Below, piece after piece: positions 6,052 through 9,105 of a stretch of DNA of 64,000 nucleotides (position 1 is its first letter; every line of letters starts with the position of its first letter). The stretch comes from an uncultured Candidatus Saccharibacteria bacterium (GTDB lineage Bacteria > Patescibacteriota > Doudnabacteria > UBA920 > VMFF01), in assembly GCA_964364285.1 (NCBI GenBank), contig CAYIKZ010000001.1:17237-81236 (forward strand), written 5' to 3'. The translations under genes and the position numbers were made by a program. The notes under the pieces are model-generated. The model did no database searches. It worked only from the letters and a program-made list of their open reading frames with translations, and had not been told where the DNA came from.

Positions 6052-6065
6052 TTCGTTTCTTCTCA

Positions 6066-6275
6066 TCACGTCACCGAATGCGGTGGCGCTGGTTTGTCCG
6101 GCGCTTGTTCAGGCACTGACCGGCCGTTCGGGTAGATCTTGATCGGGGTCAAGAAATGCATAAAGACCCAGAACAACACCACGAACAGCAGTGCCGGTTT
6201 CCAGAGAAAGTGAATGAGCGGGAGAAAGAAGGTTTCCTTTTCCAGCTCCGGCACCTTATCGGCGTCGTGAGACAT
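6066..6275 (-). CDS. hypothetical small single-TM protein (69 aa) encoded in GC-rich island B
   Basis: ATG at 6275..6273 is preceded by GGAGGA with a 5-nt spacer. The protein MSHDADKVPELEKETFFLPLIHFLWKPALLFVVLFWVFMHF... has one hydrophobic helix. CDS GC is about 58% against a host of about 38%. Confidence 0.6.
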   Translation of the reverse strand: MSHDADKVPELEKETFFLPLIHFLWKPALLFVVLFWVFMHFLTPIKIYPNGRSVPEQAPDKPAPPHSVT

Positions 6276-6302
6276 CTGTATCCTCCGTGGGTATTTGAGC
6301 GC

Positions 6303-6331
6303 ATTATCTAAAAATGTGGGGCTTTTGTCAA
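6303..6331 (-). promoter_or_regulatory. consensus sigma70-like promoter driving the island B gene
   Basis: The reverse strand reads TTGACA-17 bp-GATAAT, about 25 nt upstream of the ribosome-binding site. Confidence 0.6.
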
Positions 6332-6361
6332 TTTGCAGGGAATAGCTCTTAGGCATAGAAT

Positions 6362-6700
6362 ATGCCCATGGATAACCTAAAGAAACTCATTGATATAGCT
6401 AAGGCTGACGGGGGGAAGTTCTTTGTAATTGATGAACAGGGCAACCCAGTCTTGGTAATTATGGGTATTGATGAGTATGAAAAAGTATTGTTAAAAAAGG
6501 TTCAAAACCAGCTTGAAGATATTGATGAGATAAACAGGAAGATAATCCAGGCACAGAAACAAGAAGATAAAGTTCAGACCGCAAGACAAACTGCTCAGGA
6601 AGATCTAGTTAGCGAAGTTATTGATTCAACCTTTTCTTTTGAACCAGAAGAAGTTTCTGCTACAAACATGCAAAACAGAGCAGAGCTGGAAGATATTTAA
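6362..6700 (+). CDS. hypothetical protein with a Phd/YefM-antitoxin-like N-terminal domain
   Basis: GKFFVIDEQGNPVLVIMGIDEYEKVL resembles the YefM/Phd core (vIt.nGkp.aVlms.eeYe.L). The C-terminal half is acidic. No adjacent toxin gene. Confidence 0.4.
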   Translation: MPMDNLKKLIDIAKADGGKFFVIDEQGNPVLVIMGIDEYEKVLLKKVQNQLEDIDEINRKIIQAQKQEDKVQTARQTAQEDLVSEVIDSTFSFEPEEVSATNMQNRAELEDI

Positions 6701-6753
6701 ATTATGAGTTTTGGTATAAATATTGTATAATTAAGATGTATTAAATTATACTC

Positions 6754-8826
6754 ATGACCGAAGCGCACAGTCCTGAGCATCAGCCACAAGCTGAAGCAAA
6801 TGACACTGAAACAAAAAACAAACCACAAGTAGAAATAGACGAAAGCCTGGATATTAATAATCAGCCAGGGTTTTTAGAGCGCGTAAGAAACAACACTAAA
6901 GAATTTGTTTCTTCTGTTAAAACAACTGCTAGAATTGGAACAGTAGAGCGTTTGCAGACATGGTGGAACGATTCTAGTTATAAGAGACAAGACCAAAAGG
7001 CAGGAAAATTTTCTTCACAACATAATGATCATGATAGAGAGGTACATGCCCTAGAAGACCGTATTAGAAGACAAGACATTGCTGATGCTGACATGGAGCA
7101 TAGATTTGGCAGTAGCCAAGAACGTTCTAGAAAATCCCAGAAAGATAGAGAAACTTTGATGCACAGAATGGAGCAAGTTAAAAATGAACGAGAGATAGCC
7201 CGATTAAATTTAGAAAGTGTTAATTACAAAAAACAAGTTTACGAGAAAAAAGTTAAAGGTATAGCAAGTGGAGTCGTCGAAAGAGTTAACGAACGTTTAG
7301 AACCACAGGAAGCTAGTTTAGAGGTTATGCGTGCAAGAAAGCAACAGCTTGATTCTGAAATATTAACGTTCCAATCAAATGTTGATGAAACAGAAAACAT
7401 TCTTGATCAGATGGAAAGAGTTCAGGCAAGAGCCGGATTTGATTTTGACAAAGATGCATATGGAGAACAGATTAGAGAAATAAGGCTCCAGCTTAAGGAT
7501 TATCAAAAGAACTTAGATCAAAGAACCAAAGAAGCAAAGCGATTGGGGAGTTCAATCGAATCTGTAACAGGGAAGGTTGTCTCTTGGCGAGCGAAACGAA
7601 TGCAATATGAGAAGGTTTTGAATAGAGAATATAAGTACGCGCATCATGATGCTGATCAAGAAGACATGGCTGCAGTCAGAGCTAGGATGGACGCGTTTTC
7701 TAGAGAAGATAGAGAGAAACAGAAAAAACCAAACAAACTTGATCCAGAGGTTATGCGTAAGCTTTGGAATGGCGTGTTGGGGAATAAGCTGAGAATAACA
7801 GCGAAACAACTTGAGATGTTTGTTAATCCAAAAATAAAAGTAGAAGGTGTTAATTATCTGACTTTTAAATATATTGTTCAAGAAATTACTGGTAAAAAAA
7901 TATCAGAGAGTGATTGGAATATTTTTGAGAGTGAAGTTCAGAAACAATTAAGATCAGGGTCACAAGAAGAAGAGACCCAAGAACAAACAGCAACACCATC
8001 TCAGCTTGTGCCAGGAACACCACCAGAAGCAATTGCTGAAGGCGTAACTATAGAGCCATCTGACGGTATGCCAGGAGAAGAAGCACCTCAAGCTCAAGCA
8101 CCCGAAGAAACAGTTGAGGCAGCTATTGAACCAGCTGGTTCCATAGAGTCTGAAGTAGGAGAAGGATCAGCGCCTGAGGAAGGTGAAGAGGCCGCAGAAA
8201 CAGAAGTGATAGAAAAGAAAGTAAGAAAGTTTGGTTACAACGGGTTTGATATAAAACACTTGGTTACTGCTTGGAATCAACGTTTTTCTGAAAAGTTTCA
8301 GTTGGATTTAAAAACTTTTTCAGAAGACGCTGATTCTATGTTCCCTGATAGAAAAAATAAGCACGTATTAAAATTAAGAGATTTTAAAAAGATCATTGAG
8401 AACCAGTTTGCGCATTTAACAGATGAATCTCTTGGATCTAAACCTGAGGAAGTAGCACAATTTAAAGAAGATGTTCAGAAATTCAAAGAGTTCTTCATTG
8501 AAAATCAAATAGGTAAGATGGATGGTTATGTTGATGAAGAAAGTGATGAGTTCTATGCTCAAGAAGCTGACATTACAAGCCTTTGTGAACTTTGGAATGA
8601 TCTTTCCGATGACGCTGATGATATAAGTCCAGAAAAACTTCAAGAGCATGATCCTGATATTTCAAGTGAAGGCAATACCACCTTAAGCACTGCTAGATTC
8701 ATGGATGATACAGAACAATACAGAAGAACACAGGGACCAAAGTTTGATAATAGGAAGAGTAAAAAAACGGCTGGTTGGTTTAGCAGGTTATTGATAAGGC
8801 GTTGGGGTTTAAAAAAGAAAAAATAA
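6754..8826 (+). CDS. large hypothetical charged/coiled-coil protein (690 aa) inserted between fusA and tuf
   Basis: The N-terminal half is rich in R/E/K/Q heptad-like segments. The central part has an acidic P/E/A low-complexity linker (residues about 390-470). The C-terminus is aromatic-rich with a KKKK tail. No enzymatic motifs recognised. Confidence 0.55.
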   Translation: MTEAHSPEHQPQAEANDTETKNKPQVEIDESLDINNQPGFLERVRNNTKEFVSSVKTTARIGTVERLQTWWNDSSYKRQDQKAGKFSSQHNDHDREVHALEDRIRRQDIADADMEHRFGSSQERSRKSQKDRETLMHRMEQVKNEREIARLNLESVNYKKQVYEKKVKGIASGVVERVNERLEPQEASLEVMRARKQQLDSEILTFQSNVDETENILDQMERVQARAGFDFDKDAYGEQIREIRLQLKDYQKNLDQRTKEAKRLGSSIESVTGKVVSWRAKRMQYEKVLNREYKYAHHDADQEDMAAVRARMDAFSREDREKQKKPNKLDPEVMRKLWNGVLGNKLRITAKQLEMFVNPKIKVEGVNYLTFKYIVQEITGKKISESDWNIFESEVQKQLRSGSQEEETQEQTATPSQLVPGTPPEAIAEGVTIEPSDGMPGEEAPQAQAPEETVEAAIEPAGSIESEVGEGSAPEEGEEAAETEVIEKKVRKFGYNGFDIKHLVTAWNQRFSEKFQLDLKTFSEDADSMFPDRKNKHVLKLRDFKKIIENQFAHLTDESLGSKPEEVAQFKEDVQKFKEFFIENQIGKMDGYVDEESDEFYAQEADITSLCELWNDLSDDADDISPEKLQEHDPDISSEGNTTLSTARFMDDTEQYRRTQGPKFDNRKSKKTAGWFSRLLIRRWGLKKKK

Positions 8827-8829
8827 TTT

Positions 8830-9042
8830 ATGGATACCACAACACAAGAATTAAATAGCTTAAGTGATAACCTAAAACAGGCAAATGCCCAGTTCATGCA
8901 TAAGACTGCGGCGTTGATAGACGAGTTAGATAAGGATATTAGGGAGTCAGATGTTAATCTGGCGGCATTGAGTAAGGAAATGCAGCACACGGAAGCATGG
9001 GCTGATCGAGAGTTATCAGAGGCTGTGACTGAGCTAGAATAG
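8830..9042 (+). CDS. hypothetical small helical protein (70 aa), likely translationally coupled to the 690-aa gene
   Basis: Starts 4 nt after the upstream stop. Acidic and helical. Confidence 0.35.
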   Translation: MDTTTQELNSLSDNLKQANAQFMHKTAALIDELDKDIRESDVNLAALSKEMQHTEAWADRELSEAVTELE

Positions 9043-9076
9043 CGACATTCCACAGGTGTGGACAAATCCTTGAGTT

Positions 9077-9105
9077 TTGACAAAAAGGGGCAAATTTGTT
9101 AATAT
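9077..9105 (+). promoter_or_regulatory. sigma70-type promoter for tuf
   Basis: TTGACA-17 bp-TAATAT, followed by a structured leader of about 100 nt (hairpin GAGCT-GTAA-AGCTC). Confidence 0.6.

What the first reader, a model, noticed from the sequence alone, without database searches (positions are those of the whole stretch)
6060..9100. About 3 kb accessory insertion splitting fusA from tuf inside the str operon
In almost all bacteria tuf directly follows fusA. Here fusA is terminated and followed by island B, a Phd/YefM-like orphan, a 690-aa coiled-coil/acidic protein, a coupled 70-aa protein and a fresh TTGACA-17-TAATAT promoter for tuf. Such a conserved junction being used as a landing site for novel genes is notable. 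The 690-aa protein and the 70-aa protein (4-nt spacing) look like a two-gene module.
Basis: partly seen in the sequence, partly recalled or inferred. Interest (0 to 1): 0.6.

Follow-up and report, generated by a model that had tools for sequence, protein, structure and literature searches.

The report
Conserved unknown genes between fusA and tuf
The 3 kb between the elongation-factor genes fusA and tuf is not a recent insertion: apart from one small GC-rich swappable gene slot, it is an inherited set of three uncharacterised genes, one of which sits in front of tuf in many lineages of the ultra-small Patescibacteria.

Summary
fusA (3880-5997) ends at a strong bidirectional terminator. Three real plus-strand genes follow (110, 690 and 70 aa), and tuf (9207-10397) has its own TTGACA-17-TAATAT promoter.

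The same trio lies between fusA and tuf in every relative found, down to 88% EF-G identity. It has native codon usage and dN/dS of 0.06-0.20.

- **110-aa protein:** not an orphan antitoxin. It belongs to an unannotated family (at least 621 proteins; all named sources are Patescibacteria). In every locus examined that carries a member, it lies downstream of fusA, usually 100-160 nt before tuf.
- **690-aa and 70-aa proteins:** a genuine two-gene module. A fast-evolving coiled-coil protein with "WN" domains is followed by a small helical partner in 9 of 9 contexts. In distant members the module sits elsewhere in the genome.
- **Accessory part:** only 6060-6299. This is a GC3-rich minus-strand gene in a slot bounded by a promoter and the terminator. 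Relatives carry unrelated genes there, or nothing.

In this sample, split fusA-tuf junctions are the norm in Patescibacteria (27 of 35 loci).

Function is inferred, not shown. I favour a membrane-associated coiled-coil scaffold for the pair, and a dimeric regulator or adaptor for the 110-aa protein. Interest is moderate.

The parts
3880..5997 (+). fusA (EF-G, 705 aa), the upstream anchor gene
   Evidence: ORF. EF-G Pfam domains on the identical contig. 95-97% identical in the close relatives.
6010..6058 (.). Bidirectional intrinsic terminator. It ends the rpsL-rpsG-fusA unit on the plus strand and the island-B gene on the minus strand.
   Evidence: Energy -30.7 kcal/mol (z -6.6) on plus and -29.9 (z -7.4) on minus, with a U-rich run on both sides. 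Inverted repeat I1. Conserved in L005-L010.
6060..6299 (-). Island B, the only truly variable (accessory) segment. It is a GC3-rich slot holding a 69-aa single-pass membrane protein gene (6066-6275, minus strand) with a GGAGGA ribosome-binding site.
   Evidence: GC3 0.71 against 0.27-0.45 for native genes. The same site is empty in L007/L008, holds an unrelated 207-208-aa gene in L005/L006/L009/L010, and a 140-142-aa gene in L098/L099. Hydrophobic segment shown.
6303..6331 (-). Conserved sigma-70-like promoter (TTGACA-17-GATAAT) that drives the slot gene towards the fusA terminator
   Evidence: 11 of 12 match. The sequence CGCATTATC...TTTTGTCAATTT is conserved in all relatives, including the empty site.
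6332..6361 (+). Promoter-like site for the 110-aa gene (TTTGCA-18-TAGAAT). The -10 hexamer lies exactly 6 nt before the ATG at 6368, so the mRNA is probably leaderless. It overlaps the palindrome GGCATAgaaTATGCC (6352-6366).
   Evidence: and the sequence. The same 6-nt spacing between -10 and ATG is seen in L098 and L099. The palindrome is conserved in L005/L007/L009. Function is inferred.
6368..6700 (+). p110: a small acidic protein (pI 4.35). Its N-terminal helix-strand-strand-helix core is weakly Phd/YefM-like, followed by a long helix and an acidic C-terminal motif EVIDSTFSFEPEE. It belongs to a family that lies between fusA and tuf in many Patescibacteria lineages.
   Evidence: 621 family hits; every source name that identifies a taxon is Patescibacteria, the rest being 'hypothetical protein' or similar. 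Found between fusA and tuf in at least 12 further loci and in 7 of 7 p110-anchored look-ups. 25 of 62 members hit PF02604 at E<=0.01. AF2 model pLDDT 71. dN/dS 0.06-0.08.
6724..6731 (+). TG-TATAAT, a possible internal (extended -10-like) promoter for the 690-aa gene
   Evidence: Sequence. ATATTGTATAAT is conserved in L007 and L009, and is TATACT in L005. In L099 the corresponding gap is only 12 nt, so co-transcription with p110 is likely there.
6754..8826 (+). p690, a coiled-coil/'WN-domain' (CC-WN) protein. Layout: conserved N-terminal motif (aa 38-72); long helical coiled coil (aa 74-290); WN domain 1 (aa ~326-403); acidic disordered linker (aa 404-496); WN domain 2 (aa ~497-590); a degenerate third WN region (aa ~598-660); invariant basic amphipathic tail KKTAGWFSRLLIRRWGLKKKK.
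   Evidence: Orthologue alignment. Family profile E=8e-59. 78 representative clusters in 1.84 billion proteins. AF2 model. WN-domain hits. Tail properties. No match in Pfam, NCBIfam, PHROGs, PADLOC or PDB.
8830..9042 (+). p70, the small acidic helical partner of p690, probably translationally coupled (3 nt after the p690 stop codon)
   Evidence: 74-77% identical in close relatives. A homologous small ORF follows every CC-WN gene examined, with the shared motif AN..F..KT...I..(I/L)D.DI.
9049..9062 (.). Palindrome TCCACAggTGTGGA, about 15 nt upstream of the tuf -35 element. A candidate operator.
   Evidence: Sequence. Conserved in the window, L005/L007/L009 and L099, and partly in L092, regardless of the upstream gene. 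Its role is inferred.
9077..9105 (+). tuf promoter, TTGACA-17-TAATAT with TG before the -10. It is ancestral in the clade, not new.
   Evidence: Conserved in L005, L007, L009, L099, L091, L092 and L093. tuf promoters act as stand-alone promoters in cultivated Saccharibacteria (PMC10633639).
9108..9191 (+). Conserved tuf 5' leader. Hairpin 1 with a U-run (9108-9131) and hairpin 2 GCCCUGGAGAGC..GCUCGGGC (9164-9191).
   Evidence: z -3.0. Alignment and 2 compensatory pairs. No Rfam family matches.
9207..10397 (+). tuf (EF-Tu, 396 aa), the downstream anchor gene
   Evidence: 97-99% identical in close relatives.

Best explanation
The fusA-tuf interval has three layers of different age. It is not one insertion.

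**Layer 1: p110.** This is an old member of the str gene cluster in many Patescibacteria. Its usual position is between fusA and tuf, just upstream of tuf.

**Layer 2: the p690/p70 pair.** This is a vertically inherited, fast-evolving two-gene module from an uncharacterised family. The large protein is a coiled coil with one or more C-terminal 'WN' domains, and a 70-85-aa helical partner follows it. In distant members the module lies elsewhere in the genome. At the base of a family-level clade (EF-G about 88% identical or more) it joined p110 in one tight operon. The order is either p110-big-small (as here) or big-small-p110.

**Layer 3: the variable slot.** Between the bidirectional fusA terminator and a conserved divergent promoter sits a minus-strand slot. 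It holds a different GC3-rich orphan gene in each species, or none. This is the only accessory piece.

**Why it is tolerated (inferred from promoter and terminator predictions).** In these organisms the cluster is cut into separate transcription units: rpsL-rpsG-fusA, then p110-p690-p70, then tuf, then rpsJ and onwards. Each has its own sigma-70-like promoter. Genes can therefore sit between units without polar effects on tuf.

**Function (inferred, not shown).**
- p690 and p70 probably form a hetero-oligomeric coiled-coil scaffold or adaptor in the cytoplasm. In this genus it would be tethered to the membrane by the invariant basic amphipathic C-terminal helix, and the WN domains on acidic flexible linkers would serve as interaction modules.
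- p110 is most likely a small dimeric protein built on a YefM-like core. It would act either as a DNA-binding regulator of the p110 and tuf promoter palindromes, or as an adaptor using its acidic-aromatic C-terminal motif.
For: **Shown**
- The trio lies between fusA and tuf in all orthologue-bearing contigs and in the deeper relatives L098 and L099. There EF-G is 88% identical, EF-Tu 94%, p110 62% and the large protein 22%.
- L091 and L092 (EF-G 90-91%) carry big + small + p110 in permuted order with gaps of 3-13 nt. A profile of the ~430-aa core family members confirms the homology (8e-59 to 1e-20).
- The interval genes are under purifying selection and have native codon usage.
- The p110 family has 621 hits, and the source names that identify a taxon are all Patescibacteria. 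Members lie between fusA and tuf in Saccharibacteria-, Uhrbacteria- and Falkowbacteria-labelled genomes and others. They end 100-160 nt before tuf in 8 of 10 cases, including a complete genome.
- The fusA-tuf gap exceeds 250 bp in 27 of 35 Patescibacteria-like loci. It is 203 bp or less in 13 of 13 other bacteria.
- Empty-site and alternative-cargo evidence supports the slot. Its cargo genes are coding genes with foreign-like GC3 of 0.59-0.71.
- Terminator and promoters. The tuf promoter and leader are conserved whatever lies upstream.
- The small partner follows the large gene in 9 of 9 contexts.

**Supporting the functional inference**
- AF2 predicts a long helical coiled coil at aa 74-290 with pLDDT about 80-90.
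- The C-terminal tail is invariant in 5 of 5 orthologues, is 44% K+R, and has the top hydrophobic moment in the protein.
- No transmembrane segment or signal peptide is present.
- p110 is predicted as helix-strand-strand-helix, and 25 of 62 family members give weak PF02604 hits.
Against: - L093 (EF-G 87%) has p110 but no CC-WN pair in the interval. The pair has therefore been lost or moved at least once.
- The locus sample is biased.
- The taxonomic range of the distant CC-WN members is unknown, because that library carries no names.
- The p690 model has mean pLDDT 58.8.
- The amphipathic tail is confined to the window's genus and is absent from L098, L099 and the core family.
- hhalign of the p110 family against E. 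coli YefM gives only 23% probability over 21 columns.
- Transcription units are predicted from consensus matches, not measured.
Confidence: 0.72

Rival explanations
1. Recent accessory or mobile insertion. A foreign block of about 3 kb landed in the conserved fusA-tuf junction of this genome and brought or created a new tuf promoter.
For: The interval is large, lacks annotated domains and begins with a compositionally odd patch. Island B really does vary between species.
Against: - The trio is present at the same place in every relative found, down to 88% EF-G identity.
- GC3 is native and selection is purifying.
- No integrase, transposase, flanking tRNA or meaningful direct repeats. The 9-nt repeat D5 is not conserved in relatives.
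- No viral, PHROG or PADLOC relatives, apart from one sub-significant PbeC hit on a distant small-partner homologue, L094.
- The tuf promoter is conserved irrespective of the upstream gene.
Confidence: 0.04
2. Toxin-antitoxin or defence module. p110 is a Phd/YefM antitoxin, and p690 and/or p70 is its unconventional toxin or effector.
For: p110 gives a weak PF02604 signal. Within the clade, p110 is in one tight operon with the pair.
Against: - In most Patescibacteria loci p110 stands alone between fusA and tuf with no partner gene.
- The CC-WN pair occurs without p110 in distant contexts.
- No toxin, nuclease or NTPase domain, and no PADLOC hit for p110, p690 or p70.
- The p110 match is below the Pfam cut-off and covers only about 40 residues.
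- The conserved chromosomal position beside core translation genes is unlike mobile TA loci.
Confidence: 0.05
3. Translation-linked factors. p110 (and possibly the module in this clade) works with EF-Tu, EF-G or the ribosome. For example, its acidic-aromatic C-terminal tail might dock onto a translational GTPase, or it might tune tuf expression. This would make it a lineage-specific component of the translation apparatus.
For: - The position between the two elongation-factor genes is conserved across several Patescibacteria classes.
- p110 has the strongest constraint of the interval genes (dN/dS 0.06-0.08).
- The C-terminal motif EEVI..(F/Y)x(F/Y)EP is conserved.
- Palindromes lie at the p110 and tuf promoters.
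- From general knowledge: Phd's partner Doc targets EF-Tu, and acidic C-terminal tails of stalk proteins recruit translational GTPases. Both are leads from memory, not tests.
Against: - There is no direct evidence of any interaction.
- p110 is absent from the interval in many Patescibacteria loci (16 of 27 gaps above 400 bp lack it). These include contigs with EF-G 63-65% identical (L026, L027, L034, L038).
- Gene neighbourhood alone is weak evidence in compact genomes.
- The C-terminal motif is truncated in some subfamilies (L039, L041, L044).
Confidence: 0.22
4. The ORFs are annotation artefacts or decaying pseudogenes in an expanded intergenic region.
For: None of the three has a curated domain hit above threshold.
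Against: - Full-length orthologues have conserved ends and motifs.
- Third-position-biased divergence and dN/dS well below 1.
- Distant homologues number in the hundreds for p110 and in the tens of clusters for p690.
Confidence: 0.01

Closest known systems
Classical bacterial str operon (rpsL-rpsG-fusA-tufA, as in E. coli)
   Same: The order rpsL, rpsG, fusA ... tuf, rpsJ ... is kept, and the flanking genes are highly conserved.
   Different: - fusA is followed by a strong bidirectional terminator, and tuf has its own promoter and structured leader.
- Three to four extra genes lie in between.
- In the sampled Patescibacteria a split junction is the rule (27 of 35 loci), whereas 13 of 13 other bacteria had 203 bp or less.
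Phd/YefM type II antitoxins (Pfam PF02604)
   Same: The N-terminal ~40 residues of p110 (helix, two short strands, then the 'xVIMxxxEYExL' helix) resemble the YefM dimerisation/DNA-binding core. 25 of 62 family members hit PF02604 at E<=0.01.
   Different: - The score is below the curated cut-off (21.1 against 29.8 bits).
- No adjacent toxin is present in any of the more than 20 loci examined.
- The chromosomal position next to tuf is fixed.
- p110 has a long extra helix and an acidic-aromatic C-terminal motif instead of a toxin-binding tail.
- No significant fold match.
Bacterial coiled-coil scaffold proteins and MinD/FtsA-type C-terminal membrane-targeting helices (comparison from general knowledge)
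   Same: p690 is a soluble, acidic protein predicted to be a long helical coiled coil. It has a short basic amphipathic C-terminal helix (GWFSRLLIRRWGLKKKK) and a small co-translated helical partner.
   Different: - No sequence or significant structural homology to any such protein.
- The tail is genus-specific.
- The WN domain has no known counterpart.
- Polymerisation and membrane binding are untested.
Stand-alone tuf and rpsJ promoters of cultivated Saccharibacteria (Wang et al. 2023, PMC10633639)
   Same: The tuf and rpsJ upstream regions of Nanosynbacter lyticus and Southlakia epibionticum drive reporter and resistance genes on their own. This matches the separate TTGACA-17-TAATAT (tuf) and TTGACA-17-TAAAAT (rpsJ) promoters seen here.
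   Different: That work did not describe the genes between fusA and tuf. The promoters here are predicted, not measured.
Flexible genomic islets or gene-cassette slots at fixed intergenic sites
   Same: Island B is a fixed site with conserved borders. It carries different, unrelated, compositionally foreign single genes in different species, and there is an empty allele.
   Different: - No integrase, attC-like repeats or other recombination machinery is detectable.
- The slot supplies its own conserved promoter and uses the fusA terminator.
- At least four similar GC3-rich single-gene islands occur elsewhere in the window.

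Membership tests
Phd/YefM antitoxin (PF02604), tested for p110 | Sequence match at or above the Pfam gathering score | tested here: not met
   21.1 bits against a cut-off of 29.8, E=2.6e-4, residues 3-42 only. 25 of 62 family members reach E<=0.01, best 1.1e-6. The family profile against PDB YefM sequences gives E 0.065-0.09. hhalign against E. coli YefM (sequence recalled from memory) gives probability 23%.
Phd/YefM antitoxin (PF02604), tested for p110 | Adjacent cognate toxin gene (YoeB, Doc, RelE-like and similar) in a two-gene operon | tested here: not met
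   In all loci the neighbours are fusA, tuf, CC-WN, pilin-like genes or orphan genes. No toxin domain was seen.
Phd/YefM antitoxin (PF02604), tested for p110 | YefM-type N-terminal dimerisation/DNA-binding fold | tested here: inconclusive
Recently acquired genomic island or mobile element | Presence or absence varies among close relatives | tested here: not met
   The trio is present in all relatives. Only the 6060-6299 slot varies.
Recently acquired genomic island or mobile element | Atypical base composition or codon usage | tested here: not met
   GC3 is 0.34 (p110), 0.27 (p690) and 0.45 (p70), against 0.30 for fusA and 0.39 for tuf. Only the slot gene is atypical, at 0.71.
Recently acquired genomic island or mobile element | Mobility genes, flanking repeats, tRNA target, or viral/plasmid relatives | tested here: not met
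   No integrase or transposase ORF. Repeats are at chance level and not conserved. No IMG/VR or PHROG relatives.
Classical co-transcribed str operon | Gene order rpsL-rpsG-fusA-tuf | tested here: met
   The order is preserved, with intervening genes.
Classical co-transcribed str operon | fusA and tuf adjacent and co-transcribed | tested here: not met
   A 3.2 kb gap, a strong terminator after fusA, and a separate promoter and leader for tuf. Transcription itself was not measured.
CC-WN + small-partner module (unnamed family defined here) | Profile match to the ~430-aa core: N-terminal motif, conserved coiled coil and C-terminal WN domain | tested here: met
   A profile built from 10 distant members hits p690 at E=8e-59. 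The reciprocal p690 profile finds 78 clusters, 39 of them at E<=1e-10. WN-domain hits lie at aa 328-368 and 498-581.
CC-WN + small-partner module (unnamed family defined here) | A 70-85-aa helical partner gene immediately downstream | tested here: met
   9 of 9 contexts, spacing -20 to +13 nt, with a shared motif.
Membrane-tethered coiled-coil scaffold (functional analogy only) | Long coiled coil plus an amphipathic membrane-targeting helix; self-assembly at the membrane | not testable with these tools
   The coiled coil is predicted. The tail is basic, amphipathic and invariant within the genus. Assembly and membrane binding need experiments.

The most novel reading that the evidence does not exclude
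p110 is a previously unrecognised component of the elongation-factor gene cluster that is specific to Patescibacteria. It would be a YefM-fold protein domesticated to act on EF-Tu/EF-G or on tuf expression. The CC-WN/partner pair would be a Patescibacteria-specific cytoskeleton-like membrane scaffold that became wired into the same operon in one clade. Neither family has any annotation, solved structure or literature that I could find.
Probability: 0.25. Interest if true: 0.7.

Novelty: new variant of a known kind. Interest (0 to 1): 0.45.

Why it matters
Patescibacteria make up a large share of bacterial diversity, and most of their conserved genes have no assigned function.

- **p110.** A small gene that keeps its place between the two elongation-factor genes across several classes is a concrete, testable candidate for a lineage-specific translation or regulatory factor.
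- **The CC-WN/partner module.** It is a candidate structural protein in cells that lack many classical cytoskeletal and division proteins.
- **Operon organisation.** The str cluster in this phylum appears to be split into independently promoted units. This explains why a junction that is invariant elsewhere repeatedly accepts extra genes, which matters for operon prediction and for genetic engineering. tuf and rpsJ promoters are already used as tools in Saccharibacteria.
- **For the scan.** The finding is downgraded from "recent insertion in a core operon" to [quoted passage not shown].

Tried and rejected
**Domain and family searches**
- Pfam, NCBIfam, PHROGs and PADLOC on all interval proteins gave only sub-threshold coiled-coil noise and the weak PF02604 signal.
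- Profile searches against PDB sequences found nothing meaningful for p690, the core family or p110.

**Structure**
- AF2 of p690 followed by Foldseek against PDB gave a best E of 0.24. The hits were designed helical bundles, ClyA-type pore formers, F-BAR domains and axonemal coiled coils. I treat these as generic helical matches, not homology.

**RNA**
- Rfam at gathering score on the whole window, and at E<=1 on 2200-11400, found no RNA family for the GC-rich patches or the tuf leader.

**Searches that added little**
- The third homologue search, with the core-family alignment, returned only 2 proteins because the word filter was saturated by coiled-coil words.
- The metagenome scan gave only 3 loci.
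- IMG/VR scans for both families and for two island genes found nothing.
- Cluster look-up of distant CC-WN members returned no names.

**Ideas discarded**
- The direct repeat TGAGTTTTG flanking the p690-p70 block looked like a target-site duplication. It is not conserved in relatives and is at chance frequency.
- In-frame read-through from p690 into p70 (TAA-TTT-ATG) was rejected because the frame relation is not conserved. The spacing is 1 nt in L007 and a 20-nt overlap in L099.

**Literature**
- Searches found no description of genes between fusA and tuf in Patescibacteria.

Full report
**Source and layout**

The window is identical to part of a 96.6-kb contig from a Hainich groundwater metagenome, 0.1 µm fraction (ENA ERZ1292616). 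It is 38% GC. It carries ParB, an M50 peptidase, rpsL (2956-3363), rpsG (3368-3868), fusA (3880-5997), tuf (9207-10397), rpsJ (10876-11193) and the S10/spc ribosomal-protein genes. The nearest named relatives in public genomes are labelled Candidatus Saccharibacteria (EF-G 73-74% identical). One closer genome (EF-G 91%) is labelled Candidatus Doudnabacteria by its submitter. I therefore call the organism a member of the Patescibacteria (CPR), near Saccharibacteria, without a firmer placement.

**Checking the observation**

- fusA ends at 5997 and is followed by a long hairpin at 6010-6058. It folds at -30.7 kcal/mol (z -6.6) on the plus strand and -29.9 (z -7.4) on the minus strand, with U-rich runs on both sides. 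It is a bidirectional terminator.
- A patch of about 240 bp at roughly 55% GC follows (island B).
- Three plus-strand ORFs come next, of 110/112, 690 and 70 aa.
- The 70-aa ATG lies 3 nt after the 690-aa stop codon.
- TTGACA-17-TAATAT sits at 9077-9105.

This gene has one hydrophobic segment and a GGAGGA ribosome-binding site. It is driven by a near-consensus promoter, TTGACA-17-GATAAT at 6331-6303, and ends at the fusA terminator.

**Is it a recent insertion? No.**

The 690-aa protein has only four other 90%-identity clusters among 5.8 billion proteins (54-61% identity, full length). All of them lie between fusA and tuf, preceded by a ~110-aa gene and followed by a 70-aa gene. In these genomes EF-G is 95-97% identical and EF-Tu 97-99%. 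The interval proteins are 82-87% (p110), 74-77% (p70) and 54-61% (p690) identical.

Codon-level comparison shows purifying selection. dN/dS is 0.03 for fusA and tuf, 0.06-0.08 for p110, about 0.09 for p70 and 0.12-0.20 for p690. dS is 0.2-0.9 for fusA and tuf, and higher or saturated for the interval genes.

A profile of the five orthologues was searched against 1.84 billion representative proteins. It found 78 clusters, 39 of them at E<=1e-10. The two best outgroup hits, 686 and 827 aa, again sit in the order fusA, minus-strand GC-rich gene, p110, large protein, 70-aa protein, tuf. These genomes have EF-G only 88% identical and a large protein only 22% identical to p690.

Two further genomes (EF-G 90-91%) carry a 502/547-aa homologue plus a 78-82-aa gene directly upstream of p110, with gaps of 3-13 nt. 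A third (EF-G 87%) has p110 but lacks the pair in the interval.

The trio has native third-position GC (0.27-0.45). There are no mobility genes and no conserved flanking repeats. No relatives were found in IMG/VR, PHROGs or PADLOC.

**p110 is a widespread Patescibacteria gene, not an orphan antitoxin**

I looked at ORFs in the fusA-tuf gaps of 27 Patescibacteria-like loci fetched with EF-G. A recurring ~90-140-aa protein appeared, with the N-terminal pattern KKTGDRxIVxD..(F/Y)VxM..YExL.

A search with an alignment of these found 621 proteins at E<=1e-3. All were unannotated or "hypothetical". The source names that identify a taxon are Patescibacteria, Uhrbacteria, Falkowbacteria and Doudnabacteria.

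An HMM of 62 members detects the gene downstream of fusA, on the same strand, in L012, L013, L016, L018, L024, L029, L030, L031, L039, L041, L043 and L044. It ends 100-160 nt before tuf in 8 of 10 cases where both genes are on the locus.

Look-ups anchored on distant family members (27-34% identity) gave the same picture. One is fusA-p110-tuf-rpsJ in a complete 0.9-Mb genome. The other is fusA, two pilin-like genes, p110, tuf.

The resemblance to Phd/YefM is real but thin.

- PF02604 scores 21.1 bits against a cut-off of 29.8.
- 25 of 62 members reach E<=0.01.
- The AF2 model (pLDDT 71) shows helix, strand, strand, long helix.
- No toxin gene is adjacent anywhere.

**The 690 + 70 aa pair is a genuine module from an uncharacterised family**

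Distant members are about 410-470 aa long and share:

- an N-terminal motif, LF..L.E..K.F...LYE...NTVDRAKI.YN..L..WH;
- a conserved coiled coil, LE.RN.KKA.YEN.RK..VE.V.GRI.ERL.P.E;
- a WR.K.NEFARISQRE segment;
- a C-terminal domain of about 70 aa with Y(I/V)..WN.YFGSEL.I, which I call the WN domain.

A profile built only from these distant members hits p690 at E=8e-59. p690 and its clade relatives carry two to four WN domains, separated by acidic low-complexity linkers.

AF2 predicts long helices packed as a coiled coil for aa 74-290 (pLDDT about 80-90), two small helical domains, and disordered linkers.

In all nine contexts examined the large gene is followed, at -20 to +13 nt, by a 70-85-aa acidic helical protein with the shared motif AN..F..KT...I..(I/L)D.DI. 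In the distant members the module sits next to CorA/CysS/DnaB or a comM-like gene, not the str cluster. So its position between fusA and tuf is a clade-specific relocation.

No curated family, solved structure or significant fold match exists.

**The truly accessory part is island B**

Aligning the fusA-p110 spacer across relatives gives conserved borders. On one side is the terminator. On the other is CGCATTATC...TTTTGTCAATTTGCAGGGAA...TAGGCATAGAATATG. Between these borders lies one of the following:

- nothing (L007, L008);
- the window's 69-aa gene;
- an unrelated 207-208-aa gene (L005, L006, L009, L010);
- a 140-142-aa gene (L098, L099).

All cargo genes are on the minus strand. They are GC3-rich (0.59-0.71) and show third-position-biased divergence between orthologues, so they are real coding genes. 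Most begin with a hydrophobic segment. The minus-strand promoter lies in the conserved border and persists even at the empty site.

The window has at least four more such GC3-rich single-gene islands. One of them sits between the M50 peptidase gene and rpsL, and its 100-aa minus-strand ORF is conserved in relatives. Their origin is unexplained.

**Why the junction tolerates extra genes**

The cluster appears to be cut into separate transcription units. Consensus or near-consensus promoters precede rpsL (2805-2833), tuf (9077-9105) and rpsJ (10802-10830), and a weaker consensus match (9 of 12) precedes p110 (6332-6361).

The tuf promoter, an upstream palindrome (TCCACAggTGTGGA, 9049-9062) and a two-hairpin leader are conserved across the clade whatever gene lies upstream. 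Hence the promoter is ancestral, not "fresh". Independently, tuf and rpsJ upstream regions from cultivated Saccharibacteria work as stand-alone promoters (PMC10633639).

In the EF-G-anchored sample, 27 of 35 Patescibacteria-like loci have fusA-tuf gaps above 250 bp, up to 5 kb. All 13 loci from other phyla have 203 bp or less. A split junction is therefore a trait of the phylum in this sample.

**Mechanism (inferred)**

I commit to the following, with modest confidence.

- p690 and p70 form a hetero-oligomeric coiled-coil scaffold or adaptor in the cytoplasm. The supporting points are tight translational coupling and strict co-occurrence, no signal peptide or transmembrane segment, and an acidic composition.
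- In the window's genus the scaffold would be tethered to the membrane by the invariant basic amphipathic tail KKTAGWFSRLLIRRWGLKKKK. The resemblance to MinD/FtsA-type targeting helices comes from memory.
- The WN domains on flexible acidic linkers would act as interaction modules.
- p110 is most likely a dimer built on a YefM-like core. It would act as a DNA-binding regulator of the palindromes at its own start (GGCATAgaaTATGCC, 6352-6366) and/or upstream of tuf. Alternatively it would act as an adaptor through its conserved acidic-aromatic C-terminal motif.
- The -10 hexamer lies exactly 6 nt before the p110 ATG in three diverged lineages. This suggests a leaderless mRNA.

None of this is demonstrated.

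**Verdict**

The feature is conserved lineage-specific operon content of unknown function, plus one small variable gene slot. It is not a recent insertion.

It is of moderate interest. The main reason is that p110 emerges as an unannotated gene with a conserved place in the elongation-factor cluster across several Patescibacteria lineages. The CC-WN/partner pair is also an uncharacterised two-gene family.

Noticed in passing
window 2301-2780 (ORF 2415-2717, minus strand): 'Island A', a GC-rich patch (mean 53%, up to 62% GC) between the M50 peptidase gene and rpsL. It encodes a 100-aa minus-strand protein with GC3 0.69, conserved in L005, L007 and L009. It is bounded by a terminator hairpin (2370-2391) and the rpsL promoter region, the same architecture as island B. 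No Pfam or Rfam match.
   Followed up: partly
window 36256-36846 (+), 39272-39682 (+), 60739-61389 (+): Three more single-gene GC-rich islands (53-57% GC, GC3 0.59-0.62) in a 38% GC genome. They encode 196-, 136- and 216-aa proteins with no Pfam hit. The 216-aa protein had no IMG/VR relative. Their origin, and why their composition has not drifted towards the genome average, is unexplained.
   Followed up: partly
window 10449-10784 (+): A further lineage-specific 111-aa ORF sits between tuf and rpsJ, followed by a TTGACA-17-TAAAAT promoter for rpsJ (10802-10830). It evolves fast (41-51% identity in close relatives, dN/dS 0.11-0.24). A 102-aa ORF occupies the same position in L091, with no detectable similarity to it; there is no ORF there in L092 or L099.
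   Followed up: partly
window 9049-9191: The tuf control region is conserved whatever gene lies upstream. It comprises the palindrome TCCACAggTGTGGA, the promoter, a hairpin plus U-run right after the -10 (9108-9131, attenuator-like), and a second hairpin before the ribosome-binding site (9164-9191) with two compensatory base-pair changes across relatives. No Rfam family matches.
   Followed up: partly
window 6352-6370: The palindrome GGCATAgaaTATGCC overlaps the -10 and the first ATG of p110. The -10 hexamer is exactly 6 nt from the ATG at 6368, as also in L098 and L099, which suggests a leaderless mRNA.
   Followed up: partly
L101:1670-3899; also L041:2726-5519 and L044:9204-10343: In other Patescibacteria the space between fusA and p110 holds one or two type IV pilin-like genes (N_methyl / Fib_succ_major hits, or the pilin-like N-terminus FTLIELL). 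This is another example of the same junction accepting cargo.
   Followed up: no
L091-L093 (fusA-tuf intervals of 5-6 kb): Sister lineages carry additional unannotated genes in the interval. These include large multi-pass membrane proteins (534/558 aa, minus strand), a conserved 229-249-aa protein, and an RRM_1-domain protein (245 aa in L093; a 381-aa protein in L092 has a similar N-terminus).
   Followed up: no
L005:337-1026: A LAGLIDADG-type ORF (229 aa, weak Pfam hit) lies between BacA and ParB in one relative and is absent at the same place in the window. It may be a homing-endonuclease insertion.
   Followed up: no
window 100-1182 and 127-213: The mechanical ParB ORF (GTG at 100) overlaps the only tRNA found in the 64-kb window (tRNA-Leu CAA, 127-213). 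The true ParB start must lie downstream. No other tRNA or rRNA was found in 64 kb.
   Followed up: no
protein P0037: One p110-family member is labelled 'ribosomal protein L30E' by JGI, and another 'PHD/YefM family antitoxin component YafN'. These are automatic labels. No L7Ae/L30e signal was seen in my Pfam scan of 62 family members.
   Followed up: partly
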